From the human T2T-CHM13v2.0 reference genome, Homo sapiens, in assembly GCF_009914755.1 (NCBI RefSeq), contig NC_060931.1: DNA of 64,000 bases. One strand, 5' to 3'. Each line of letters starts with the position of its first letter. Positions within the stretch are counted from its first letter, which is position 1. A program made the position numbers and the translations under genes. Shown here piece by piece: positions 3,598-56,682 of the stretch. Below the pieces are notes generated by a model. The model searched no databases, was not told the origin of the DNA, and was given only the letters and a program-made list of their open reading frames with translations.

Positions 3598-3864
3598 GTG
3601 CAGCTCATGCCTGTAATCCCAGCATTTTGGGAGGCCGAGGTGAGCAGATCACTTGAGGTCAGGCATTTGAGACCAGCCTAGGCACCATGGTGAAACCCCA
3701 TCTCTACCAAAATATGAAAAATTAGCTGGGCATGGTGTCCCATGCCTATGGTCTCAGCAACTCCAGAGACTGAGATTGGAGGATCACTTGAGCCTGGGAG
3801 ATGGTGGTTGTAGTAAGCTGAGATTGAGCCACTGCATTCCAGCCTAGGTGACAGAGTGAGACCC
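3598..3864 (+). mobile_element. AluJ-type SINE lacking poly(A) tail
   Basis: gctcatgcctgtaatcccagc...ggaggatcacttgagcctgggag (J diagnostic)...gacagagtgagaccc, then L1 sequence with no A tail. Confidence 0.9.
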
Positions 3865-5379: not shown

Positions 5380-6036
5380 AGATATGATGTTAGCTAAATA
5401 ATTTTTTCTAGATTCCTTTGATTAGGTTAAAGGCATTTTCCTCTATTAGTAGTTTGATGATAATTTTTATCATAAGATTTTAAAATTTATCAAATTATTT
5501 TTGTGTATTTATTGATATAATCATGTAGTTATTCCTTATTCAGTTAATATGGTATGTTACATTAATTGATTTTCAAATGTTAAAACTATTTTTGTATTCC
5601 TGAGATATATTCCTTTTGGCCATGGTATGTAAATTATTTTATGTGTCACTGAATTTCATTTCCCAATATTATCTTATGGATTTTTGCATCTAGGTTTATA
5701 AGAGACATTGGTCTATAGATTTTTTATGCATTAATTATCTGGCTTAGGTATCAAACCTACACTAGCCAAATCAGATAATTTCCTCTATTATCTGCAATTC
5801 TTCATCCAATAATGGTATTTATTCCTTAAACATTTGATAGAATTTATCTGTGAAGAAATCTGGGAATTAAATTTTATTTGTGAAAAGACGTTTACTTGTT
5901 AATTGAATTCATTTATGTTTAGCGGTCTTTAAGATTTTCTAATACTTCCTGAGTCAGTAGGGTATTTTCTGTGTTTTTTTAGGCATATGTCCACTTTTTC
6001 AAAGTTGCATAATTTGTTGCCATAAACTTTTTTTCA
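5380..6036 (-). mobile_element. Old L1M ORF2 fragment, host of the Alu/THE1 nest; resumes at ~8551-8800 and ~10010-10430
   Basis: gatatgatgttagct..., ggatttttgcatctaggtttataagagacattggtctatag and ttgatagaatttatctgtgaag are reverse L1 ORF2 motifs. Confidence 0.75.
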
Positions 6037-8550
6037 GCCTGGACGCAGTGGCTTATATTTGTAATCCCAGTGCTTTGGGAGGTCAAGGTGGGCAGATCAC
6101 CTGAGGTGGGGCCTTGCCAACATGGTGAAACTCCATCTCTACTAAAAATACAAAAATTAACTGGGTGTGGTTGCACATGTCTATAACCCCAGCTACTCAG
6201 GAGGCAGAGGTATGAGAATTGCTTGAACCTGGGAGGCAGAGGCCACAGTGAGCAGAGACCATGCCACTGCACTCCAGCCTGGGCTACCATATTAGTTTGT
6301 TTTCACACTGCTAATAAAGACATACGCAAGACTGGGTAATTTATAAAGAGAAAGACATTTAATAGACTCACAGCTCCACATGGCTGGGGAGGCCTCACAA
6401 TCATGGTGGAGGGTGAAGGAGGAGCAAAGACATGTCTTACATGGAAACAGGCAAGAGAGCGTGTGCAGGGGAACTACCCTTTATAAAACCATTAGATCTC
6501 ATGGGACTTATTCACTATCATGAGAACATTACAGGCAAAAGCACACCCCCATTATTCAATTACCTCCAACTGGGTCCCTCCCACGGTATGTGGGAATTAT
6601 GGGATCTACAATTCAAGATGAGATTTGGGTGGGGACACATGTACTCACATTTCAAAACACAATTATGCCTTCCCAACAGTCCTCCAAAATCTTAACTAAT
6701 TTCAGCATTAACTCAAAAGTCTACAGTGTAAAGTTTCATCTCAGACAAGGCAAGTCCCTTCCACCTAGGAGCCTGTAAAATCAAAAGCAAGTTAATTACT
6801 TCCTAGATACAATGGGAATACAGGCATTGGGTAAATACACCCATTCCAAATGGGAGAAACTGGACAAAACGAAGGGACTACCAGCTCTATGCAAGTCTGA
6901 AATCTAGTGGGGGAGTCAAATCTTAAAGCTCCAAAATGATCTCCTTTGACTCTATGTCTCACATCCATGTCATGCTAATAATGCAAGAAGTGTGTTCCCA
7001 TGGTCTTGGGCATCTCTGCCTCTGTGGCTTTGCAGGATGTAGCCTCCTTCCTTGCTGCTTTCATTGGTTGGTATTGAGTTTCTGCAGCTTTTCCAGGCAC
7101 TTGGTGCAACCTGTCAGTGGATCTACAATACTGGATTCTGGAGGACAGTGGTCTTCTTCTCACAATTCCACTAGGCAGTGTCCCAGTGACAACTCTGTGT
7201 GAGACTCCAACCCCACATTTCCTTCCTACACTGCCCTACTAGAGGTTCACCATATGGGCTCTGCCTTTGCATTGGACTTCTGTCTGGACATCCAGGTATT
7301 TTCATATATCCTCTGCAAGAATGTATGGAAACCTCAATTCTTGACTTTTGTGCACCCATAGGCTCGATAAAATGTGGAAGCTACCAAGACTTGGGGCTTT
7401 CACCCTCTGAAGCCATGGCCTGAGCTCTACCTTGGCCCCTTTTAGCCATGGCTGGAGCAGCTGGGACACAGGGCTCCAAGTCCCTAGGCTGCATACAGCA
7501 GGGGGGCCCTGGACCCTGACCAGGAATCCATTTTTCCCTCCTTGGCCTCCAGGCCTGTAACGGGAGGGACTGCTGTGAAGGTCTCTCACATGCCCAGGAG
7601 ACATTTTCCTCACTGTCTTGGTGATTAACATGTGGCTCCTTGTTACATATGCAAATTTATGTGGTGGGCTTGAATTTCTTCCCAGACAATGGGTTTTTAT
7701 TTTCTATTGCAACACCAGGCTGGAAATTTACCAAACTTCTATGCTCTGCTTCCTCTTGAATGCTTTGACACTTAGAAATTTCTTCCACGAGAATACCTCA
7801 AATCATCTCTCTCAAGTTCAAAGTTCCACGGATCTCTAGGGCAGGGGCAAAAAGCTGCCAGAGTCTTTGCTAAAGCATAGCAAGAGTCACCTTTGCTTCA
7901 GTTCCCAACAGGTTTCTCCTCTTCATGTGACCCATATCAACCTGGACATTATTGTCCATATCACTATCAACATTTTGCCAAAGCCATTCAACAAGTCTGT
8001 AGGAAGTTTCAAACTTTCTCACGTTTTCCTATCTTTTCTGTGCCCTCCAAACTGTTCCAACCTCTGCCTGTTTCCCAGTTCCAAAGTTGCTTGCACATTT
8101 TCTGGTATCTTTATAGCAATGCCCCAATCCTGGTAGCAATTTACTCTATTAATCTGTTCTCATGCTGGTAATAAAGATGTTCCTAATACTGGATAATTTA
8201 TAATGGAAGGAGGTGTAATTGACTCACAGTTCCACATGGCTGGGGAGGTCTCACAATCACGGTGGAAGGCGAATGAGGAGCAAAGTCACGTCTTACATGG
8301 CAGCAGACAAGAGAACATGTGCAGGGGATCTCCTCTTTATAAAACCATCAGATCTCATGAGACTTATTCACTATCACTAGAACAGCATGGGAAAAGCTAC
8401 CCCCCTATGATTCATTTACCTCCTACCAGGTGCCCCCCACAACACATGGGAGTTATGAGAGCTAAAATTCAAGGTGGGATTTGGGTAGGGACACAGCCAA
8501 ACCACATCAGTGACAGTGACAGGATAAGACTGTCGCCAAAAAAAAAAAAA
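6037..8550 (+). mobile_element. AluS-type SINE split by a THE1 insertion (6037-6287 and 8510-8550)
   Basis: Alu body ends at ...ccagcctgggctac and resumes as gtgac...aagactgtcgcc(A)13. Flanked by imperfect TSD aaactttttttca / aaagttttttca. Confidence 0.88.
6288..8509 (-). mobile_element. THE1 (THE1B/C-like) MaLR element, LTR-internal-LTR (LTRs 6288-6639 and 8145-8509)
   Basis: Two similar LTRs; the right one ends gggacacagccaaaccacatca. Between them lies ~1.5 kb of THE1-internal sequence (ctcacatttcaaaacacaattatgccttcccaacagtc...). Confidence 0.92.
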
Positions 8551-29765: not shown

Positions 29766-31102
29766 AAGCATGTATGGCTGATCATCTTTGTGTATAAGAA
29801 ATATCAATATTCAATGAAGTGGCAAGAAGAAGCATTTAATTTGATTTTGTTTACATAATGAAAAAAGAACATATATTTTAAAAATGAGATTAATCAGGAT
29901 TATTCTCTTATTTATTTTTCTTGTTGTTGTTTTTCCTGTCATACCACAGCACTTGGATGAACCTGAGCTCATGTTTAGCTATTAGGGTGATTTTTGTATG
30001 TTTTAGGGTAACATATTTAGATTTACTGTCATTGATCATAATTGTTATAGAAAAAAACACATCCCTTTATTAAGAAGGCTCTTTTGGCTGGAGAAAAGTG
30101 CTTATATAAAGTGCATGTTTTTACCCAATCCAAAGCCAAAGCCAGGGAAGCTGCTTTAGTCTTTTAACATCGTTAGTTTTCTCACAGGGCCATTGTTTCC
30201 TTAATAGTTGAAGAAACATTCCAAGAAACACTAAAACTGTCTCTGTAATCATTGCACTGAGTGATACTCTGAGCTGCACATTTGTCTTAAAATAACTAAT
30301 GATCTTGAACTTCTTCCAGGCATCTTACACTTTGGAATATTTATTTTTATTCAGAAAAACAACATAAACACATGTCTCCTTTCTTAAAGAAAAGCTGTCT
30401 TAGTTCACCTCATGCATGGACTTAATAAACTCCCCACAATAAAGTAATGTTGATTATTGCTTTGCACAGTTGTAGCAGCCTCATTAGTTTCACTACATAG
30501 CTTGAAATGGTTTCATGCCAAATTAAAAATATAGGTCATTCAAAGGACTAATGGTCCTAGTTCAGCAGGAAGTAATTTCAAGCTCACCCATATCCAGAAG
30601 TCTTTTATCTTACTCTATTGCAAACCATTGTTTGCAGTGGTTCTAAAATTATATGTAAGTTTCATGAAAGCATTTATAAGTGAATGGTTAGAGACACATG
30701 CCCTACATGTCTAGCAGATTATGAAATGTTTAAGGCGGTAATTTTCAGTGCCTGATATAGTACTCAGAAATTTGGTATTTTCCTTTAATTTTATGGAACA
30801 ATTTTTACAATTTTATGTTTCAAAAATGCATTTTACTGAATGCTAATTCTATTTTCACTGAATATGTGCTATTTGAGAAGGAACAAACAATCAAGTAAAT
30901 ATGAAAAACTATGAATAAAACTTTTTGTATGGATTTTAATACTGCAGGACTTCTCAAACTCTGATATATGCATTCACATATGTCACCAATGTATCAGTGA
31001 CAATGAAAATATTTCACACTTCTCATTATACAGTTTACTTGGATTCCCAGCAGTGTATAATATTGTTGGCTGCTTATGTTATTTTTCAAAAATCAAGTTA
31101 TT

Positions 31103-31949
31103 TATTTTAATATATTTTCATTTCCATAGGTTTTTGGGGGAACAAATGGTGTTTGATTACACGAGTCAGTTCTTTAGTGGTGATCTGAGAGATTTTTTTG
31201 TGCCCTTCAATAAGCAGTATAAACAGTACCTAATTTGTAGTCTTTTATCCCTCACCACCCTCCCACCCTTTCCCCTAAGTCCCCAAATTCCATTTTATCA
31301 TTCTTATGAATTTACATCCTTATAGCTTAGCTCCCACTTATGAGTGAGTACATGTGATGTTGTGTCAGGATACAAAATAAATATACACAAATCAGTAGTT
31401 CTGCTACACAGCAACAGAAATCAAGCTGAGAATCAATTCAAGAACTCAAACCCTTTTACGATAGCAGCCAAAAAAAAAAAAAAAACTTAGGGATATACCT
31501 AACCAAGTAGGTGAAAGACGTCTACAAGGAGAACTACAAAACACTGCTAAAAGAAATCATAGATGACACAAACAAATGGAAGTACATCCCATGCTCATGG
31601 ATGGGTATAACAATATTGTGAAAATGACCATACTGCCAAAAGCAATCTACAAATTTGATACAATTTCCATCAAAATACCACCATCATTCTTCACAGAACT
31701 AGAAAAGACAATTGTAAAATTAATACGGAACGAAAAAATAGCCCACATAGCCAAAGCAAGACTAAGCAAAAAGAAGAAATATGAGGCATCACATTACCTG
31801 ACTTCAAACTATACTATAAGGCCATGGTCATCAAAACAGCATGGTACTGGTATAAGAATAGGCAAATAGACCAATGGAACAGAATAGAGAACCCAGAAAT
31901 AAACCCAAATACAGACAACTGATGTTCGACTAAGCAAACAAAAATACTT
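31103..31949 (-). mobile_element. L1PB1-type insertion with 5' inversion (3' UTR on minus 31103-31362; ORF2 piece on plus 31363-31949)
   Basis: L1PB 3' UTR (ttctttagtggtgatctgagagat) joined to plus-strand ORF2 (ORF 31576: [32 protein letters not shown]); TSD tcaagttatt at 31093-31102 and 31950-31959. Confidence 0.88.
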
Positions 31950-33203
31950 TCAAGTTATTCCCTTATCTGTACAGAAATAGACATTTTGTTCTTATAGATC
32001 AATATTTTCTTCTTTGGATATAACAATTTATTGAATCTATCCTATATTGATAGATGTTTAAGTTTTTTCCCAGTGCGTTATTACTATAAAAGTGCAGCCA
32101 CCTTGTTCATAAATCACTCCACATGTGTTAGTATACATTAGGGATAATTTTACCAAAGTAGAATTTCTGAATATAAAATTATTGCATTCATAATTCTGAT
32201 AGATATTACCAAATTGTCAACCATACGGAATTATATCAAACATTAGTAAAAAAGTGCTTATTTCTACACAGTCTGGCAAAGAGAATTTAACAAATGTTAA
32301 GTAATACCTTTTCCAGGGTTGTTCTCTACTTTGTGCCCCTCTTTCTCATGATGTGTTTTTCTTCTAATGTGTTTATGGTTGCTGATGTTAACATTAGATT
32401 TAGGATTTTTTCACTGAAGGCTTTAAGTGAAGCTTCTTTGTAATTTTATTTTGTTATATAATTTTAGACACATGTTAATATCAATGTTATATTTGCTTCA
32501 TAAAATTGGACAATTAAATTATAAGTTAAGTTCTGACATTACTTAGAAAACATTAGAATAACCTGCCCCTTAATGATTTGATTTGGGTACTGGGAAAACA
32601 GTTGGAGATTGTGCTTTTCTGGGATGCAACTCTTGGAATAATTTCTATATTATCTATTTGGAAGTCAAGTGATTAGATTACATATCTTTCCTGGTGCAAA
32701 TTTTGGTAAATCATATTTTTCTGAGCATTATCCACTTCATGAAAGCTTAAAATATGTTAGCAAAGAACTGAGCAAATTTATTTTACTTTTTCTGTAGTTA
32801 TTTATTTCCTCAACATTTTAAGCATTTGTAGTCTTTTTTTTTTCAATAGTTATAACAGCTACTAATTTATCTGTTGTTTTTATAGGTTTGAAAGGTATAA
32901 TTTTTAGCAATCTTTATTAAATCTATTTTTAAATCTTTCTTACCTGTTGGTCTCTGCTTTTATTATATTAATTTGCTCCTTCTTTTATTTAGGATACTTT
33001 GTCTCCTGGTAACTTTGTGAGATGAATGCTTTAACTATTTATTGACTGAATATTTGTCATTAGCATAAGCATTTTAAACTACAAATTTTTCTGCAGGCAT
33101 TGTTTCACCTGCATTATATCAGTTCCAAACTGTAATAAAATAAATTTATTTTAATAGACAATAATATAATTTTATTTAGTGAAAAGCTTTATCATTATTT
33201 TCT

Positions 33204-33260
33204 CTTTTATTTTTATACTTTAAGTTCTAGGGTACATGTGCACAATGTGCAGGTTTGTTA
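33204..33260 (-). mobile_element. L1PA4/5-type extreme 3' tip (~57 bp)
   Basis: tttttatactttaagttctagggtacatgtgcacaatgtgcaggtttgtta. Confidence 0.9.
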
Positions 33261-33865
33261 AAAAAAAAAAAATAGAATAAATAATTCAGTTTAAAGAGTG
33301 AAGTAGTTTGGTAGCCAGACCTAAGTATATTATTTGACATATCAATCTCGAAATTCTAGATGTTTCATCAACTAATATGTTGTCAGTTGGCAAGAATATT
33401 GAGATAGTGGTTGTTTTCACAATAATTTTTTTTCTGAAATGAATAATGGTTCTATTTATTTCAGAATAAGTGACTTTCAGATATTTTTTCAGATATCTTT
33501 CTTTCAGATATAAAGTGACTATATGTATCAGAAGTGAAATTTGTTCTTTTGAAATTAATCAAGAACCAAGTATAATTCATAAAGCTGTCAGCTTTGAGGG
33601 AGTACCACAGCTGACGAAACTCTCCAGGAGGTCCTACCAGTTCTGCCACTTCGTGGTGGATCAGTGATGCATTGTGTCTGATCTGTGGTTAATCAGGGTG
33701 CTGAATTCAGGCTATTTAAGACCCTGGAACAGGCCTCCTGTGTTCTTGGAGAGGCCTTGATTGTGTTCTTGGAGAAAAGCTGTTACTTCCAGCAAGAACT
33801 TATTCTCTTTTTGAGGAACATTTTCTAGCTTTACTATTAGACCTTTATTGGTTAGAGTGCCTGAC

Positions 33866-34310
33866 TATGGTGGTTTTAAAGCATGGCCGTAGGTTATTTG
33901 ATATTCTTCTATTGAAAGGTGGTGTATATGTCCCTTCCACTTAAATCTGGGTGAGCTGTGACTGTGTTGACAAATAGAGATTAGTGGAAGTGATGGTATG
34001 TAATTTCCAAGACTAGGTCATAAAAGGTCATGCAGCTTCTCCTATGGGGCTGCAACACCTGCTCTTGGAGTTTTAGCCTACCACCTAATACATCCAGATT
34101 CACCCAGGGTCCATGCTTGAATAAGCCCAAATCACGTGGAGAGACTACACAAATCACTTTTGTTAAAGTCCCAGCTGCACCCCAGCCTTCAAGTCATCCC
34201 TGCCTAGGCACCAGACATGTGCATGAAGAAGCCTCTGGATGATTCTAGCTTTGAGCTGTTTGTGTATTCTTTGCTATTCAGACATTTTCAGCTGAGACTA
34301 CAAGCATATG
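33866..34310 (+). mobile_element. MLT1G/H-type MaLR LTR
   Basis: tatggtggttttaaagcatggcc...gtggaagtgatggtatgtaatttccaagactaggtcataaaaggtcatgcagcttc. Confidence 0.75.
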
Positions 34311-34354
34311 GAGAAAAAACAAAACAAAATGATTCAATATATCCAATATATCCA

Positions 34355-34549
34355 ACATGAATGGTGTCCTTATAAGAAGAGACACCAGTGGTGCAAGTGT
34401 ACAGAGGGATGGCCATGTGAAGAGGCAGCAAGAGGGCAGCCATCTGCAAGCCAAGGAGAGAGGCCTCAGAGGAATCCGCTCTGCCACTGCCTTGTTACTG
34501 GACTTTTAGCTTCCAGAACTGTGAGAAAATAAATTTCTGTTGTTTAAGC
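34355..34549 (+). mobile_element. MLT1A/B-type MaLR LTR fragment ending at its poly(A) site
   Basis: ggtgtccttataagaagag...gccatctgcaagccaaggagagaggcctcag...ccagaactgtgagaaaataaatttctgttgtttaagc. Confidence 0.8.
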
Positions 34550-34726
34550 AAACAAATAAACAAAAAACTATCTGAAAAAAATAAAAAAGTTATCATTATT
34601 TTCTAGATAACCTAAAAGTTTTACTTGTATTTTATTTGTCTCAGGAGATTTTAAAAATAGTTTTTGAGTTTCCAGGGGAGAGGATCCTTTTGCTTTCTGA
34701 TATTATTGCTAATTATATATTGATAT

Positions 34727-35499
34727 TGATACAGGCAGGGAAGTGCTGGTTAGAGAAAGGTGGGGCCCTTGGCCAGGGTTTTGTCCTCAGGCCTGTGCCC
34801 ACGGACCTAGGTGAGGATAGGCACTCCTGTTTTCATGCCCGAATGTTGCATTTTCCAAGACCACCCTGGCCCAACACATCCCCCATTCTGTGGTGCCTAT
34901 AAAAACCCTGAGACCCTAGCAGGCCGACACACAAATGGCTGGACGTCGAGAGGAACACAGTGGCAGAGGAACACACCAACAGACTCTGGCAGGCCATCGA
35001 TGGCAGAATGACACAGATGACGTGGAATTTGGCTGGAGCCCGTCAGAGGAGAGTCTCCAGGGCAAGATCACCTTCCTACTCCATCCCCCTGCTGGCTCCC
35101 CATCCATCTGCTGAGAGCTACCTCCACTCAGTAAAACCTTGCATTCATTCTTCAAGCCCATGTGTGATCTGTTTCTCTGGTACACCAACGCAAGAACCTA
35201 GAATACAGAAAGCCTTCTGTCCTTGTGATAAGGCAGAGGGTCTAAGTCTAACTGAGCTAATTAACACAAGCTGCTGTTGGAAAGCTAAGCTAAAAGGGAG
35301 CATTGTAACACATGCCCACTGGGGGTTCAGGAGCTGTAAACACTCAACCCTACATGCTGCCATGGGGTCAGTGCCCACACTCCCCACCATCTGCCCGTCA
35401 TCATGTTCCCCAGTGGTTTGAGCATTGGGACACCAAAGAAGTGAGCCACACCCCCATCTCACACCCTGAAAAGGCAATAAGGGAACTTCTCCCATTTCA
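34727..35499 (+). mobile_element. LTR1-family (ERV1) solo LTR
   Basis: TGATACAGG...cctgtgcccacggacctaggtgagga...cctataaaaacc (TATA)...agtaaa (poly(A)-like)...gggaacttctcccatttCA; 4-bp TSD atat at 34723-34726 and 35500-35503. Confidence 0.88.
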
Positions 35500-36253
35500 A
35501 TATGTTCAGATGAGAAGATGCAGATTGTACCTGCAATTTTTTCTACATTATTGAATTACCTTTGTGCTTAATATACATTCTGTGTTCTGTGAAGTCATTT
35601 GCATTTTCTTTACCTATGTTGAATGTTATATGTGTATATAAATACACATAGACATATTTTTATTTATATATTTATATACATACACTTATACATACATATA
35701 TGACCTAGTTTAAATAATGTATTATGGTATTTATTTCTTCTACATCAGTAGCTTTTTCTTATTTATCTTATTTTATCTAAGACTCTTGTAGCATTAGGTG
35801 AGTAAAGATCTCCGACTGCTAGCACTTTAAATCCCCTTCTCTTTGTATCTTCTTTAAGTACTGTTTTATGAATGTGCTTCTATGTGTTTGGTGCATACAT
35901 ATTAATAATAATTAAATTTACTTTTGAATGATACTCTTTAGCATTGTAAATTGTTCTTTCTTACTTTTTTAATGTTTTTTTTGACTGAAATTTACTTTCT
36001 TTGATTCTATGATCATGTTCTTTCTACCTGCCTTCCTTTCTTTCTTGCTATACATCTGTCCATCCTCTTATATTTAACTTCTGAATTTATCCGTTTTTTT
36101 TTTTTTTTGCATGTGGTATAGAGTGGGAGTTTGCTTGGTAATTCACTCTGAAATATTATGTTAATGGAGTGAATGACAGGTTTTTTCCTTTGTTTTGAAT
36201 TATGTATTTTAAATAAGACTCCTAATGTATAATCTGTTTCCCTTTTCTCTCTC

Positions 36254-36270
36254 TGTGTGTTTATGCGTGT

Positions 36271-36309
<39 letters not shown>
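36254..36309. repeat. (TG)n microsatellite
   Basis: Pure gt run 36276-36309 with imperfect upstream extension. Confidence 0.95.
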
Positions 36310-36314
<5 letters not shown>

Positions 36315-36559
36315 GAGAGAGATTATGTTTCTTCTGATACTGCAAACGGTTACCATGTTTTGTTCTAAGTGAATTCTTTTATAATCATGTTTATACTAAT
36401 ACCTTAGTCCTCTATTAATTTAGAAAATATTTAATAGATACCATTTATGTGTACTAATTAATGTAACATTATCCTGGCAAATGTCAATTGCTACTTACAA
36501 AAAAGGCTAAATTCTAATTTTAATGCAACCAAGCCAGATTTCTTATTTGAGTTTTCTAA

Positions 36560-37420
36560 CATGTATATATTTTTGGAAGTTCCAAATGAACTTAAATTCA
36601 ATATATCAAAAACTAACTTCATAATCTTCTGTCCTTCTTGCATTTTTCCGGTTCTCTTATTTCAACACTCTTCACCATTTCTACCTACGTTTGGAAGGCT
36701 TAGACCTTAGAGCTTGCCACTTTCTTCCCCCAATCTCCATTGTTAATTCATTATTTGAGTATCTCACAAAGGCATCTCCGCTACTCAATTTCTACCATTA
36801 TTACTCTGAGACAATCAAAAACTATTATTAGTATAACCTTTGTAGAAATATTCAAACTGATTTATTCACAAAAGCCCTGGTTTCATTCCAATATTTCCTT
36901 AGCACCTAATGTATTAATATTTTTGAAGCACAAATATTCAATTTTGAAATCTCCTGAATGACTTCCTTTCTTAGCTAAAGACACATTTTAAAATTGGCCT
37001 GTAAGGCTTTACACAGGCTGATCTTACATACTTCTATTTGGCAGGTTTCCTTCACTTAAGGAATAAATTTTTTAAAAAGTTTTGTATACAGTGCTATCTT
37101 CTCTACTGTTAAAAGACATTTATGTATTTTTTATTGCCTTTCTGTCTCCTTAAAGGTAAATCCTACACATTTATCAGATCTCATTTCAGTTGTCACTTTC
37201 TGAAGGAAGACTTCGTAGACTTCCCAGGTTAGATCAAACCATCTTATTCAAATCCTTATATTATCAAGTTCCTTTAATTGTATGCCATATTATAGTTGCT
37301 ATTTTTGGCATGAATAATTACCATATTAATGCCTGTCTTCTTGACAATACATGTTTTCTGACTCCTTCTAGTCCTATGTAAACGTACTTAGAATGAAGAA
37401 ATGTGACAATTCTCAAATGA
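36560..37420 (+). mobile_element. Degraded L2 fragments
   Basis: aacttaaattcaatatatcaaaaactaacttcataatcttc; tggcctgtaaggctttacacaggctg; cagatctcatttcagttgtcactttctgaaggaagac. Confidence 0.55.
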
Positions 37421-45350: not shown

Positions 45351-46188
45351 TGTTATGGACTGAATTTTGTCTTTTTGCCCCATCCTTCCACCAAATTTCT
45401 ATGTTGAAATCCTAACCCCCAGGACCTCAGGATGTGGCCATATTTGGAGACAGGATCTTTAAAGAAGTAATTAAATTAAAATGACATCATTAAGGTGACC
45501 CAAATTCAACATGACAGTCTTTATAAAAAGAGAATATTTGGACCCTGAGACATACAGAGGAAAAATGATGTGAAGATAGGGAGAACATGGTCATTGTGTT
45601 AGGCTGTTTTTACATTGCTATAAAGGAACTATCTGAGACTAGGTAATTCATAAAGAAAAGACGTTTAATTGGATCACAGTTCTGCAGGCTGTCAAGCATG
45701 GCACAAACAAATGCTGCTGTTGAGGACCTTAGTACACTTCTACTCAGGGTATAAGACTAAGGGGTAGCCAGCACATCACATGGTGAGAGCAGGAGTGAGA
45801 CACAGAGGTGGGAGGTGTCATGCTCTTTCAAACAACCAGTTCTGGTAAACTCAGATGGGGTACTCACTCATTATCTCGAGGAGAGCACCAAGCCACTCAT
45901 GAGGGATCTGCCCCCCCATGATCAAATTTCTCCCTCTAGGCCCCACCTCCAATATTGGGGATCAAATTTCAAAATGACATTTGAAGGGCACAAATACGCC
46001 AACTATTTGAGTCATCTCTAAGCCAAGAGACAGGCCTGGAATAGCTCTTTCCCTCATGACTGTTAGAAGGAACCAAACTCCTGACAACTTGGACTTCTGA
46101 CCTCCAAAACTGAGAGAAAATAATTGTTTGTTTGTTTAAGACACCCAGTCTGTGATAATTTGTAATGGCAGCCTACTCAACTAATACC
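45351..46188 (+). mobile_element. MLT1B-type LTR split by an MST insertion (45351-45594 and 46011-46188)
   Basis: tgttatggactgaat...tatgttgaaatcctaacccccaggacctcagg...; ends gcagcctactcaactaatac. Confidence 0.85.
45595..46010 (-). mobile_element. MSTB-type solo LTR nested in MLT1B
   Basis: tgtgttaggctgtttttacattgctataaagg...; perfect 5-bp TSD gtcat at 45590-45594 and 46011-46015. Confidence 0.88.
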
Positions 46189-47117
46189 AAGGATAATACA
46201 GTCACAGTTTTAATAAGTTCTGTGAAGAAAGTGGACAGAATGCCAATGAATAAATAACCTAGGTTAAGTTAACCTGACCTGGATAGAACAGCTAAAAGTT
46301 CCTAAAGAATTGGCACTTCATCCAAGACGTGATAAAGGTGATGTGACAGAGAGCCCAGAGAAGAGCTCTCTGGGCAAAGGTAACATTAGCTTGGGTCAAT
46401 GAAGAGCCTGGCTCTAGAGAAGGTCAGTGCTGCAGGATCGGGGTGGTGGTGAGGGCAGAGGAAGCTCTCCATGTAACACAAAGTGCAGTGAGGAGTGAGA
46501 ACCACAGTGTAGAATGAAAGGAGGAGAAGCGGAGGCACTGGGTCTTGGTGACAACCATTATAAAAAGTTTGGTTGAGAAAGATGAGTTGTAAGAGAAGAG
46601 AGAGAGCTTAAGTCATGCCAGCATGTAAGTACATCTGTTTCTGTTGATACAAATATGTACCAATTAAACACACTTCTAAGTAACTAGGGAGACAAAGAAT
46701 AAATCCCAAGGAAATTAGACATGCTATAATAAATGAAAATAAAAATACAGCATACAAAAAGTATAGGATGTAGCTAAAACAGTGCTATATGAGAACTTTA
46801 TAATACCTTATAACACTAGAAAAAGAATTAAACCTAAAGCAAGCACTAGGAAGAAAATAATGAAGATTACAGCAGAAATAAAGGACACTAGTCATAAAGA
46901 AAATCAACAAAACCAAAGCTGATGCTTTGATCTACAAAGCTGACAAATTTTAAGTTACTTGGCCTGGAAAACAGAGTGAAGCCATCAAATCACAAAAAAT
47001 CTAGAATGAAAAACGAGAAAATTAACACTAAACATACACAAATATAAAGAATTACAAGGCAGAACCTTAACAATTCAATCCCAACTAATTATTTAAATGA
47101 TAAAATACATAAATATT

Positions 47118-47500: not shown

Positions 47501-48200
47501 ATGAATTAGTTTTCTGTAACTACTATAGCAAAATACTAGAGAATAGATTTTAAGTGTTCTGACCAAACACACACATACACAGACACACACAAAGTATGTG
47601 ATGTAAGTAGATATGTTAATTAGCTTGATTTAGCCATTCCACAATGCGTATATATTTGTGATATATATATGTGTGTGTGTATATATATATTTCAAAACAT
47701 CATGTTACACCATAAATATGTACACTTTATTATTATAAAAATGGTGAAAAGAAAAAATAAAAACAAAGTGTCACGAACGTGGTGGCTTAAAACAACAGAA
47801 ATTTATGTTCTTAGAGTTCTGGATGCCACTAATCCAAAATCAGTATCGCTGAGCCAAAACAAAGGTGTTAGCAGGGCTTCATATTCTCTAAAGGCTTTAG
47901 ATGAGAATCATTCCTTGTCTCCTCCAGGTGCTTGTGGATGTCAGCTTTCCTTGGCTTGTGGCTACATTATGCTGATTTTTCTAGGCCAACATCTTTAAAT
48001 CACTTGGTTCTATTTTCTTACAGCCTTCTCTTGTGTGAGTATGCAGTCCCCTCTTTATCTGTGTCAAATCTCTCTTACCCCTTATCTTAGTAGGACACTT
48101 GTGCTCTCAATTAGGGCTCTCAATTAGGGCCCATCTGAATAACCAGGATAATCTACTCATCTCAAGATCTTTCATTTAATCACATCTGCAAAGACATCAC
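47501..48200 (-). mobile_element. MLT1(C-like) LTR interrupted by a plus-strand L1MA 3' tip (~47537-47765)
   Basis: attagttttctgtaacttactatagcaaa || ggtggcttaaaacaacagaaatttatg...taatcacatctgcaaagac; the insert has gatatgttaattagcttgatttagccattccacaatg. Confidence 0.75.
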
Positions 48201-52909: not shown

Positions 52910-53326
52910 TTTTTCTTTTTCTTTTTTTTTTTTTTATTATACTTTAGGTTTTAGGGTACATGTGCACATTGTGCAGGTTAGTTACATATGTATACATGTG
53001 CCATGCTGGTGCACTGCACCCACTAAATCGTCATCTAGCATTAGGTATATCTCCCAATGCTATCCCTCACCCCTCCCCCCACCCCACCACAGTCCCCACA
53101 GTGTGATATTCCCCTTCCTGTGTCCATGTGATCTCATTGCTCAATTCCCACCTATGAGTGAGAATATGCGGTGTTTGGTTTTTTGTTCTTGCGATAGTTT
53201 ACTGAGAATGATGATTTCCAATTTCATCCATGTCCCTACAAAGGACACGAACTCATCATTTTTTATGGCTGCATAGTATTCCATGGTGTATATGTGCCAC
53301 ATTTTCTTAATCCAGTCTATCATTGT
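52910..53326 (-). mobile_element. Young 5'-truncated L1PA2-type 3' end
   Basis: ggttagttacatatgtatacatgtgccatgctgg, gtcatctagcattaggtatatctcc, gatgatttccaatttc. Lacks the L1HS-Ta ACA (has GAT). ORF 53141-53323 is the ORF2p C-terminus (DWIKKMWHIYTMEYYAAIKNDEF...SLIGGN). Confidence 0.92.
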
Positions 53327-55217: not shown

Positions 55218-55304
55218 ATATATATATTTTTATCATACTTCAGGTTCTAGGGTACATGTGCACAACGTGCAGGTTTGTTACATATGTGTACATGTGCCAT
55301 GTTG
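55218..55304 (-). mobile_element. Tiny L1PA (PA4/5-like) 3' tip inserted in an Alu tail
   Basis: ttctagggtacatgtgcacaacgtgcaggtttgttacatatgtgtacatgtgccatgttg; TSD atttctttt at 55209-55217 and 55305-55313. Confidence 0.85.
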
Positions 55305-55595
55305 ATTTCTTTTTTTTTTTTTTTTGAGACCGGGTCTCATTCTGTCACCCAAGCTAGGAGGTTGAGGTGTGGTGGCATGATCTTGGCTCCCTTCAACCTC
55401 CACAGCCTGGGCTTGAGAGATTCCCCCCACCTCAGCCTTCCTAGTAACTGCCACCATGCCTATTTTTGTATTTTTTAGTAGTCATGTGTTTTCGCCACGT
55501 TGCCAGGCTGGTCTCTGTCACTTGAGCTCAAGGGATGCAGTTGCCTTGGCCTCCCAAAGTGCTGAGATTACAGGAATGAGACACTGTGCCCAGCT
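55305..55595 (-). mobile_element. AluJ-type SINE
   Basis: T tail, gagaccgggtctcattctgtcaccc..., gagctcaag, ggcctcccaaagtgctgagattacagg; TSD tctat(ca/tg)gtcaatttct at 55190-55206 and 55596-55612. Confidence 0.9.
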
Positions 55596-56682
55596 TCTAT
55601 TGGTCAATTTCTATGTTTCAGCCTTTCCCTTTGCCCCCATTATGTTCTACAAATGCTGGACTCCTGCTGTAGATGTGGAAATGAGACATTTTCTAATTAT
55701 TCCATTTTCTTTCTTATCTCAATGCCCTTTGTTTCTGTTTTTGTTTGTTTTTCTTTTTTGTTGTTGTTTCTCTTCTGCGTTTTCTTTGCCATATTTAGTT
55801 GTCAGTGTTTTACAATAAAGAAGAGGCATATTAAATCCTCTTTGTGTGGAAAGAAATGTAATAGATTCTCTAGTCTGTCACACTTCATATATTATTATGC
55901 CATCAAAAACCTGTAAGCATGATAATAAAATAAAAACCCAAGGCAACAGTAGCTGCCAGTGGGTTTTACAGATTAATCACTATATGCCGTAAATAATATG
56001 GATTTCAATGGACTCTGAAGAAGATTTTTTGAGTTAAAGCATATGGGCTACAGAAGCTTCTTAAAATATTTAGGAATTAGGATAGCCACTTGTGACATTA
56101 CTGAAGTAGGGTGAAAAGTGAGGCAGAAACATCATATGGCCCTCAATTTCCACTTTAGCCCCTTTCTTTAGTTATACCCATCACTTTGACTTTAGCATTT
56201 ATAGGAAGTTTTAGGTAATATAAGTTAGTAATTTAAAAGCTGTCCTTCAGAAATGTATTAGTTGGCATACCACTCCCTTGAAACACTCCTAAAAAAAAAA
56301 AATGGAAATGTAAACATTTTAGAAATTCTGCATGAAATGGTCTCCACCTGAAAATAAATTAACATGTTCTAATATATCCTATTACCTCTAGTGAATATTT
56401 TTGCTTAACTCTCCAATCAGTATTTCCAAATTTATTTGACCCCAAAAATTATTTATTTTGTTCCGTAACACTCCTTAACACTCTTGTATTTTATCTCAGA
56501 TGTTTTCTTCTAACATAACATTTCTTAACATCTCAAGGAATTGGGGTTCTGCCAAACACCTTAAAGTAATTGTTGTGCCAAAACAGATACATGAATGACT
56601 GATTAAAACAGTGCTCATTAACTCTTATCTCTCTAGTTTCTCTTTTATACTATTTTCAGAGTTGCTTTCTAAAACATATTTT

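What the first reader, a model, noticed from the sequence alone, without database searches (positions are those of the whole stretch)
33182..34604. Cryptic L1 3' transduction, polyadenylated at an MLT1 LTR site, with an inverted L1 tip
Seen: (1) An identical 15-mer ttatcattattttct lies at 33189-33203 and 34590-34604, each preceded by aaaag (a ~20-bp TSD with a 2-nt indel), and the old L1M host continues across the block. (2) Inside, left to right: a 57-bp antisense L1PA4/5 3' tip, A13, ~590 bp of unique DNA, an MLT1G/H LTR, then an MLT1A/B fragment. (3) That fragment stops 16 nt after its AATAAA (34528-34533) and turns into an A-rich tail (34550-34588), whereas the related MLT1B in this window runs past that point to its U5 end (46141-46188). 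Established: L1 read-through gives 3' transductions, twin priming gives 5' inversions, and MaLR LTRs supply poly(A) signals. Inference: a source L1 elsewhere read ~1.3 kb downstream, was cleaved at the MLT1 poly(A) site, and the T-rich TSD end primed a second time on the source L1's own A tail. A repeat annotation would show only unrelated fragments, so the event could easily be undescribed. It would mean the 'ancient' MLT1 copies here are recent passengers.
Basis: partly seen in the sequence, partly recalled or inferred. Interest (0 to 1): 0.85.

Follow-up and report, generated by a model that had tools for sequence, protein, structure and literature searches.

The report
Old L1-made copy carrying LTR fragments
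A 1.4-kb piece of chromosome 13, including two very old retroviral LTR fragments, was copied into chromosome 7 by the L1 retrotransposon machinery roughly 12-26 million years ago, so these LTR copies are passengers; the mechanism is an ordinary, well-known one.

Summary
The observed features are real. A 22/20-nt target-site duplication (exact 15-mer) brackets window 33204-34584. Inside are an inverted 57-nt L1 3' end, an A13 run, and 1.31 kb that has exactly one paralog, chr13:90493718-90495032 (93.5% identity; K2P 5.3%, about 12-26 Myr). chr13 has no tail and no duplication, so it looks like the parent and chr7 is the retrocopy. Both LTR pieces came as passengers.

- chr13 has no L1 end at the boundary or within 30 kb.
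- The LTR does not run on into U5 there. The truncated LTR and 25 nt of the "A-rich tail" are already present in chr13.

This event used a second AATAAA (34555-34560), outside the LTR. Only about 10 nt are its own tail.

Best reading (0.6): an orphan L1 3' transduction with twin priming, from a source L1 allele that is absent from this assembly. Rival (0.22): twin priming on two separate RNAs.

The younger LTR piece belongs to a roughly 400-nt LTR family with a MaLR-like terminus. The MLT1 subfamily names, the L1PA subfamily and the "L1M host" could not be tested here. This is a known kind of event and of low interest.

The parts
33182..33203 (+). Left target-site duplication, 22 nt (AAAAG + CT + the exact 15-mer). 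Its T-rich 3' end is the likely second primer.
33204..33260 (-). Inverted L1 3' end. 33204-33214 is the complement of an A-rich tail start. 33215-33260 is the last ~46 nt of the L1 body.
33260..33272 (+). Internal run of 13 A. The last 5 (perhaps 8, with one mismatch) are shared with chr13. The 5-8 extra A are read as the rest of the source L1's tail.
33265..34576 (+). Block copied from chr13:90495032-90493718 (minus strand). 93.5% identity over 1323 columns; 66 substitutions in 1298 aligned sites and 5 indels.
33871..34260 (.). Passenger.
   Evidence: 94 first-look candidates; chr13 93%; other long matches 67-75%
34350..34549 (+). It is cut at both ends, and the 3' cut lies 16 nt after its AATAAA (34528-34533). 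Passenger.
34550..34574 (+). A-rich stretch shared with chr13, so inherited and not a tail of this event. It contains the second AATAAA (34555-34560), the likely signal used.
34575..34584 (+). Remnant of the poly(A) tail of this event. Absent from chr13. Bounds uncertain by 2-3 nt.
34585..34604 (+). Right target-site duplication, 20 nt (AAAAG + the 15-mer).

Best explanation
Core claim (about 0.95). About 12-26 Myr ago the L1 machinery reverse-transcribed a polyadenylated RNA carrying 1.31 kb of chr13 sequence into chr7 at a T-rich target. This left a 22-nt target-site duplication and a short A tail. The two LTR fragments in the block are copies of LTR fragments that already sat, already truncated, at chr13.

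Full reading (0.6). The RNA was a read-through transcript of an L1 that sat on one allele of chr13, directly upstream of the block and in the same orientation. It ran: L1 3' end, the L1's A tail, chr13 flank, poly(A). It passed the L1's own signal and the LTR's AATAAA, and was cleaved 13-16 nt after the AATAAA at 34555-34560.
- The nicked bottom strand primed on the terminal poly(A) and copied 1.31 kb back to the L1's A tail.
- The T-rich 3' end of the top strand (the end of the duplicated target) primed on that same internal A tail and copied 46 nt of L1 body.
- Joining the two cDNAs gave the inverted tip, an internal A run and the direct block. This is twin priming.
- The source L1 allele was never fixed, so chr13 in CHM13 is the empty allele.

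Shown: the duplication, the tail, the paralog, the direction of copying, the inverted L1 tip, the shared truncation and the date.
Inferred: the source L1, a single RNA, and the order of priming.
For: - Duplication and tail on chr7 only; chr13 runs on without either.
- Exactly one paralog for the 597-nt unique part and for the first 80 nt.
- The tip is an L1 3' end. It lies next to the left duplication with its tail end towards it, as twin priming requires.
- There are two A stretches, internal and terminal. The block begins at an A run of the parent. A review describes exactly this for 3' transductions: two homopolymer stretches plus the source's 3' duplication (PMC4859970, passages).
- The direct segment ends in 5-8 extra A exactly where the inverted segment begins in A-rich tail. 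Both cDNAs therefore meet in one A tract. Overlap of the two cDNAs is common, median 12 bp (PMC12016303, passages).
- The chr13 boundary (...GTAAG/AAAAATAG) is a plausible L1 nick site.
- No gene is annotated at the chr13 locus to supply an independent RNA.
- Orphan transductions from L1s absent from the reference are documented (PMC4859970, table row and reference).
- K2P of 5.3% gives 12-26 Myr. That falls inside the 26.8-7.6 Myr given for L1PA6-L1PA3 (PMC4083085) and 30-10 Myr for L1Pa7-L1Pa3 (PMC7449397).
Against: - The predicted source L1 is not there. chr13 has no L1 3' end at the boundary or in 30 kb around it; only A runs and words of at most 16 nt matched.
- No sibling copy with an L1 body was found.
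- The inverted piece is very short.
- The bottom-strand nick reads TTTT/CA, which departs from YYYY/RR at one base. The top-strand nick, TTCT/AG, fits.
- The 5' limit of homology is ambiguous by 3-8 nt inside the A run.
- Matches in closed regions of the genome are not shown.
- No primate orthologs could be examined.
Confidence: 0.6

Rival explanations
1. Twin priming on two separate RNAs. An independently transcribed, polyadenylated chr13 RNA was primed by the bottom strand (trans-mobilisation, as for a processed pseudogene). An ordinary L1 mRNA was primed at its own poly(A) tail by the top strand. The two cDNAs were then joined. No source L1 at chr13 is needed.
For: - chr13 lacks any L1 3' end at or near the boundary.
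- The top-strand nick TTCT/AG is the better L1 endonuclease site (YYYY/RR per PMC4859970). A first priming on L1's own RNA would therefore fit cis preference.
- Opposite-orientation L1 chimeras have been ascribed to two reverse-transcription reactions at the two ends of a break (bioRxiv 10.1101/2025.02.02.635956, passages).
- 5' inversions occur in processed pseudogenes, 3 of 23 (PMC12016303).
Against: - No annotated gene or transcript at the chr13 locus.
- The copied RNA is unspliced intergenic sequence.
- The 5-8 extra A at the inner junction have no source in this model.
- It needs a rare trans event plus a second template. A read-through L1 RNA explains all parts with one molecule.
Confidence: 0.22
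2. Two events. A plain retrocopy of the chr13 RNA inserted first. Later a 5'-truncated antisense L1 (57 nt) inserted exactly at the junction between the left duplication and the retrocopy's A-rich 5' end, which reads TTCT/AAAA on the top strand.
For: That junction would be a good L1 endonuclease site. Very short L1 insertions exist.
Against: - The tip has no target-site duplication of its own. The sequence to the right of the tip is the A run, not a repeat of the T-rich left flank.
- It requires a hit at exactly the junction base.
- It still leaves the extra A and the origin of the chr13 RNA unexplained.
Confidence: 0.06
3. chr13 is not the source.
For: Matches in closed regions are not shown (tool notes).
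Against: chr13 shows no tail and no flanking duplication, and its flanks run on as ordinary DNA. Only two copies are visible.
Confidence: 0.05

Closest known systems
Orphan L1 3' transduction from a non-reference source L1 (Solyom et al. 2012, seen only as a table row and reference in PMC4859970)
   Same: L1-made insertion consisting almost wholly of non-L1 flank from another chromosome, with duplication, tail and endonuclease-type site. The source element is absent from the reference.
   Different: This one is old and fixed (about 12-26 Myr). It keeps 57 nt of L1, inverted. The source L1 is inferred, not found.
Twin priming / 5' inversion of L1 insertions (Ostertag and Kazazian 2001, seen only as a reference; described in PMC4859970 and PMC12016303)
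   Same: The inverted 5' segment abuts the 5' duplication. The top-strand end is T-rich. The two cDNAs show a small overlap or duplication.
   Different: The inversion point lies in the source L1's A tail rather than inside the L1 body. As a result, almost all of the direct segment is transduced DNA.
Opposite-orientation L1 chimeras ascribed to two reverse-transcription reactions at one break (bioRxiv 10.1101/2025.02.02.635956, passages)
   Same: L1 and non-L1 parts lie in opposite orientation within one duplication.
   Different: In that work the partner is a small RNA such as a tRNA half, and the L1 carries the poly(A) end. Here the non-L1 part is 1.31 kb of intergenic DNA with its own tail.
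ERVL-MaLR (MLT1-type) solitary LTRs
   Same: The younger fragment belongs to a dispersed family of about 400 nt with discrete ends. It has AATAAA about 65 nt before the 3' end, and a terminus that I recall as MaLR-like.
   Different: These two copies did not arrive by LTR transposition. They are fragments re-copied by L1 long after MaLR activity ended: about 40-45 Myr ago in primates, with MLT1 dating to early placental mammals (PMC10735291).

Membership tests
L1-mediated retrocopy (target-primed reverse transcription) | Flanking target-site duplication | tested here: met
   22/20 nt including an exact 15-mer. 2 matches in the window against 0.10 expected.
L1-mediated retrocopy (target-primed reverse transcription) | 3' A tail that the parent locus lacks | tested here: met
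   About 10 nt of A-rich tail at 34575-34584. chr13 continues with unrelated sequence.
L1-mediated retrocopy (target-primed reverse transcription) | Endonuclease-type nick site (5'-YYYY/RR-3') | tested here: inconclusive
   Read: the bottom strand is TTTT/CA (one departure) and the top strand is TTCT/AG (fits). The rule comes from PMC4859970.
L1 3' transduction | Parent copy of the transduced DNA elsewhere, with a poly(A) signal before the point where homology ends | tested here: met
   chr13:90493718-90495032, 93.5% identity. AATAAA is present in both copies 13-16 nt before the end of homology.
L1 3' transduction | Two A stretches, with L1 sequence attached to the inner one | tested here: met
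   A13 at 33260-33272 next to the L1 tip (which is inverted), plus the terminal tail.
L1 3' transduction | Progenitor L1 directly upstream of the parent copy | tested here: not met
   No L1 3' end at the chr13 boundary or in chr13:90480000-90509999 of CHM13. Other assemblies and species could not be examined.
Twin priming | Inverted 5' segment whose RNA-3'-most base abuts the 5' duplication, with a T-rich top-strand end | tested here: met
   The complement of the L1 tail start lies directly after ...TTATTTTCT.
Twin priming | Inverted and direct segments derive from neighbouring parts of one RNA | not testable with these tools
   This needs the source L1 locus. Only the shared A tract hints at it.
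ERVL-MaLR LTR (MLT1 type), younger fragment 34350-34549 | Dispersed multi-copy family with discrete common ends | tested here: met
   2388 first-look candidates, 39 scored. In ten copies mutual similarity ends 46-56 nt past the point equal to 34549, and up to about 147 nt before the fragment's start.
ERVL-MaLR LTR (MLT1 type), younger fragment 34350-34549 | TG...CA termini and a MaLR-type 3' terminus | tested here: inconclusive
   4 of 4 copies that reach the 5' end show TGTTATG there. 2 of 6 end in ACTAATACA and 4 of 6 differ from it at 1-2 bases. That this motif marks MaLR is my recall, not a tool result.
ERVL-MaLR LTR (MLT1 type), younger fragment 34350-34549 | Short target-site duplication around individual solo LTRs | tested here: not met
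   0 of 6 copies gave a 4-6-nt flanking direct repeat next to TG...CA. The copies are about 77% alike pairwise, so decay could explain this.
ERVL-MaLR LTR (MLT1 type), both pieces | Match to a named library model (Dfam/RepeatMasker), including subfamily | not testable with these tools
The older piece shows no blastn similarity to the younger family.
Processed retrocopy of a cellular gene | Annotated parent transcript; loss of introns | tested here: not met
   No gene is annotated between chr13:90483629 and 90550261. The copy is collinear with genomic DNA.

The most novel reading that the evidence does not exclude
The insertion records twin priming on two different RNAs at one staggered break. 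The top strand primed on an L1 mRNA's own tail, and the bottom strand primed on an unrelated, unannotated intergenic chr13 transcript. This would be a kilobase-scale, opposite-orientation L1/non-L1 chimera, and it would imply germline expression of that chr13 RNA in an ancestral catarrhine. A mechanism of this kind has already been proposed in print for small RNAs.
Probability: 0.22. Interest if true: 0.4.

Novelty: new member of a known kind. Interest (0 to 1): 0.2.

Why it matters
- **Repeat dating.** Two LTR fragments that would be dated by family to early placental mammals arrived at this chr7 site only about 12-26 Myr ago, as cargo of an L1-made copy. Dating an LTR copy by its family name can therefore be wrong for a given locus.
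- **Phylogenetic marker.** The locus is a clean presence/absence marker for catarrhine phylogeny.
- **Lost source element.** It shows how an orphan transduction can outlive its source element.
- **What it is not.** It reveals no new mechanism. It lies in a region with no annotated gene, and no function is suggested.

Tried and rejected
- **A source L1 further upstream at chr13.** I fetched 30 kb in all and compared it with the tip. Only A runs and words of at most 16 nt matched. The A18 run about 0.9 kb upstream belongs to an element I recognise by recall as an Alu, with its own flanking repeat.
- **Sibling transductions.** Searches with the 597-nt unique part and with the first 80 nt found only chr7 and chr13.
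- **The L1M host.** The left flank gave no paralog. The right flank gave a repeat only from about 34719-34734. 30800-32650 gave only a ~585-nt high-copy repeat. tblastn with an ORF2 C-terminal piece had a best E of 0.034 over 12 residues, and blastn of the flanks against nine L1 3' loci gave nothing. I could not confirm or refute the claim.
- **Naming L1 through Pfam.** 0 families for 5, 9 of 10, and 6 stop-free stretches. The one match was a chance-level WDR35 hit, E 0.031. The solved-structure search then gave the name.
- **The L1 3' region at 55235-55640.** Used as a genome query, it returned only a ~290-nt high-copy element nested there.
- **Relation between the two LTR pieces.** None was detectable.
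- **A target-site duplication for an older retroposition ending at the LTR's poly(A) site.** Judged by eye, nothing was convincing.
- **L1PA subfamily of the tip.** Not resolvable from 57 nt without a library. L1PA4/5 is compatible with the date but is not shown.
- **Prior description of this locus.** I make no claim that it is undescribed. My literature searches were on mechanisms, not on this locus. Supplementary tables were closed, and they may list it: for example those of the chimera census or of population surveys listed.

Papers:
- Passages only (find mode): PMC4859970, PMC4083085, PMC7449397, PMC10735291, PMC12016303, bioRxiv 10.1101/2025.02.02.635956.
- Search listing only: all other papers named.
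- Seen only as references or recalled: Ostertag and Kazazian 2001, Goodier 2000, Pickeral 2000, Solyom 2012, Khan 2006, Smit 1993, Jurka 1997.
- The placement of the 5.3% divergence relative to human-ape and human-macaque divergence is recalled, not computed.
Full report
**1. Observation**

The left target-site duplication, 33182-33203, reads AAAAG, CT, then the 15-mer. The right copy, 34585-34604, reads AAAAG then the 15-mer (family D3). With up to one mismatch the 15-mer occurs only at these two places in the 64-kb window. Shuffles give a mean of 0.10, and 1 of 100 shuffles reached two matches.

Between the two copies lie, in order:
- 33204-33260, an inverted L1 3' end;
- 13 A at 33260-33272;
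- non-repetitive DNA;
- two repeat pieces;
- AATAAA at 34528-34533;
- an A-rich stretch running up to 34584.

**2. The tip is L1**

Two other stretches of the window (52937-52984 and 55235-55280) are 92-93% identical to 33213-33260. Each is preceded by a T run and each continues past the point where the tip breaks off into the A run. In the genome, 39 non-self matches were 92-100% identical over 50-63 nt (272 first-look candidates, 40 scored). In one of them (L057) a stop-free stretch of 114 codons just upstream matches the C-terminal 114 residues of LINE-1 ORF2 protein (8sxt_A, E 2.6e-68). Pfam gave nothing for such stretches.

The subfamily cannot be read from 57 nt with the tools on hand.

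**3. The paralog**

The unique part, 33274-33870, has exactly one other match in CHM13: chr13:90494427-90495023 on the minus strand, 94% identical (2 candidates, both scored). The first 80 nt of the block likewise match only chr7 and chr13.

With wider flanks, homology runs from window 33265 to 34576, equal to chr13:90495032-90493718, at 93.5% over 1323 columns (alignment). chr13 has no A tail and no flanking duplication, and its DNA runs on on both sides. chr13 is therefore the parent-like copy and chr7 is the retrocopy.

Matches in closed regions are not shown, so a third copy cannot be excluded.

**4. What the paralog overturns**

- *No L1 at the source.* Upstream of the homology, chr13 has no L1 end. 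The tip finds only A runs and words of at most 16 nt in chr13:90480000-90509999. An A18 run about 0.9 kb upstream belongs to an element I recognise by recall as an Alu.
- *The LTR is already truncated at the source.* The LTR fragment is cut at the same base in chr13 and followed by the same 25 A-rich bases (34550-34574), which contain a second AATAAA (34555-34560). Homology ends 13-16 nt after that hexamer, and only then does chr7 have its own short tail.

The RNA of this event was therefore not cleaved at the LTR's poly(A) site. The LTR also does not run into U5 at the source.

**5. The LTR remnants: real, of what family, how old**

*Younger fragment, 34350-34549.*
- It matches a large dispersed family (2388 first-look candidates, 39 scored). 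chr13 is 96% identical and the other copies 75-85%.
- I compared ten other copies (L008-L017) pairwise, without building any consensus. All ten continue to resemble one another for 46-56 nt past the point equal to 34549. L013 does so in only one pairing; the rest do so in 6-10 pairings.
- The chr7 and chr13 continuations match only each other.
- Some copies extend about 147 nt further upstream, giving a unit of roughly 400 nt.
- 4 of 4 copies that reach the 5' end show TGTTATG there. 2 of 6 end in ACTAATACA and 4 of 6 differ from it at 1-2 bases. In 0 of 6 did I find a 4-6-nt flanking repeat.
- The median pairwise identity among the ten copies is 77.5% (95 pairs; range 70-86%).

No library was available, and I did not try to name the family through inner genes.

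*Older piece, 33871-34260.*
- It has 94 first-look candidates (40 scored). chr13 is 93% identical. Other long matches are 67-75%, and short ones reach 89%.
- It shows no blastn similarity to the younger family. Its LTR nature is untested.

*Age and content.* Print places all MLT1 members except MLT1A1 and MLT1C2 in the ancestor of placental mammals, and ends primate MaLR activity about 40-45 Myr ago (PMC10735291, passages). There are no viral genes in the block and nothing to translate.

**6. Date of the copy**

Over 1298 aligned sites there are 66 substitutions (37 transitions, 29 transversions), p = 5.1%, K2P = 5.3%. There are 5 indels covering 19 columns. Outside CpG contexts there are 55 substitutions in 1276 sites, 4.3%. 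At 1.0-2.2e-9 per site per year this gives 26-12 Myr using all sites, or 22-10 Myr without CpG sites.

That falls within the span given for L1PA6-L1PA3, 26.8-7.6 Myr (PMC4083085), and for L1Pa7-L1Pa3, 30-10 Myr, with L1Pa5 peaking about 25 Myr ago (PMC7449397).

The LTR pieces at chr7 are thus far younger as copies than their families. The passenger claim holds.

**7. Mechanism**

The target reads GTG/AAAAG on the top strand at the left limit, which is TTTT/CA on the bottom strand. At the right limit it reads TTCT/AG on the top strand. The rule is YYYY/RR with variants (PMC4859970).

The complement of an A-rich tail start, followed by the L1 body, lies directly after the T-rich end of the left duplication. 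Twin priming predicts that arrangement. The direct segment ends in 5-8 A beyond what chr13 supplies. The boundary is ambiguous because chr13 reads AAGAAAAA where chr7 has only A.

A review states that 3' transductions typically carry two A stretches and the source's 3' duplication (PMC4859970). A long-read survey finds 5' inversions in 18-22% of L1 insertions and in 3 of 23 processed pseudogenes, often with overlap of the two cDNAs, median 12 bp (PMC12016303).

The simplest account is one read-through RNA: L1 end, A tail, chr13 flank, poly(A). It was primed at its terminal tail by one strand and at the internal tail by the other. This needs a source L1 allele at chr13 that is not in CHM13. Orphan transductions from non-reference sources are on record (PMC4859970). 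I give this reading 0.6.

**8. Rivals**

- *Two RNAs primed at the two ends of the break (0.22).* The empty chr13 site and the better endonuclease site on the top strand favour it, and this kind of origin has been proposed for opposite-orientation L1 chimeras (bioRxiv 10.1101/2025.02.02.635956). Against it: there is no annotated transcript at chr13, and the extra A have no source.
- *A later, separate insertion of the 57-nt tip exactly at the junction (0.06).* The tip lacks a duplication of its own.
- *A hidden third copy (0.05).* This cannot be excluded because closed regions are not shown.

**9. Not settled**

- Whether an old L1M continues across the block (searches gave nothing either way).
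- The subfamily names.
- Presence or absence of the block in other primates.
- Whether the LTR's truncation at its own poly(A) site, followed by an A-rich stretch, is the relic of a still older retroposition at chr13.

**10. Verdict**

This is a real, well-delimited, L1-made retrocopy of chr13 DNA carrying LTR passengers. It is most likely an orphan 3' transduction with twin priming. The kind of event is well known, so interest is low.

Noticed in passing
window 34528-34574; L003 about 3720-3760 (chr13): In both copies the LTR fragment stops 16 nt after its own AATAAA and is followed by the same 25-nt A-rich stretch. This looks like the decayed tail of an older retroposition that ended at the LTR's poly(A) site and predates the chr13-to-chr7 copy. 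I found no convincing flanking repeat by eye.
   Followed up: partly
window 33276-33281: An AATAAA lies 4 nt after the internal A run, at the very start of the chr13-derived block and also in chr13. The copied RNA must have read through it.
   Followed up: no
window about 34719/34734-35150: An abundant repeat begins here: 1731 first-look candidates, 73-80% identity, and most matches start at query base 143-150. Family not identified.
   Followed up: no
window 31362-31945: A high-copy repeat of about 585 nt: 7986 first-look candidates, 86-88% identity. Family not identified.
   Followed up: no
window 52937-52984 and 55235-55280; 55306-55595: Two further antisense L1 3' ends, each next to a T run. 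The second is followed by a ~290-nt high-copy element: 7351 first-look candidates, 71-75% identity. Open stretches around them gave no Pfam family.
   Followed up: partly
window 47785-47826 (minus strand) and 46088-46190: Two more fragments of the same LTR family as 34350-34549. One is 88% identical over 42 nt. The other is a ~100-nt 3' end that reaches the family terminus.
   Followed up: partly
L003 about 5900-6240 (chr13, minus strand): An Alu-like element (named from recall) with an A18 tail and a flanking direct repeat, about 0.9 kb upstream of the parent block and outside the copied stretch.
   Followed up: no
window about 34020 and about 34340 (alignment A1, columns 853-861 and 1205-1211): The two copies differ by a 9-nt and a 7-nt indel, each inside a short tandem repeat. 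These are slippage events since the copy was made.
   Followed up: no
window 31000-37000: The 'masked_repeat' rows of the supplied annotation cover only 31519-31710, 31738-31915, 33127-33289 and 35592-35779. Neither LTR piece is covered. That mask is therefore not a transposable-element annotation.
   Followed up: no
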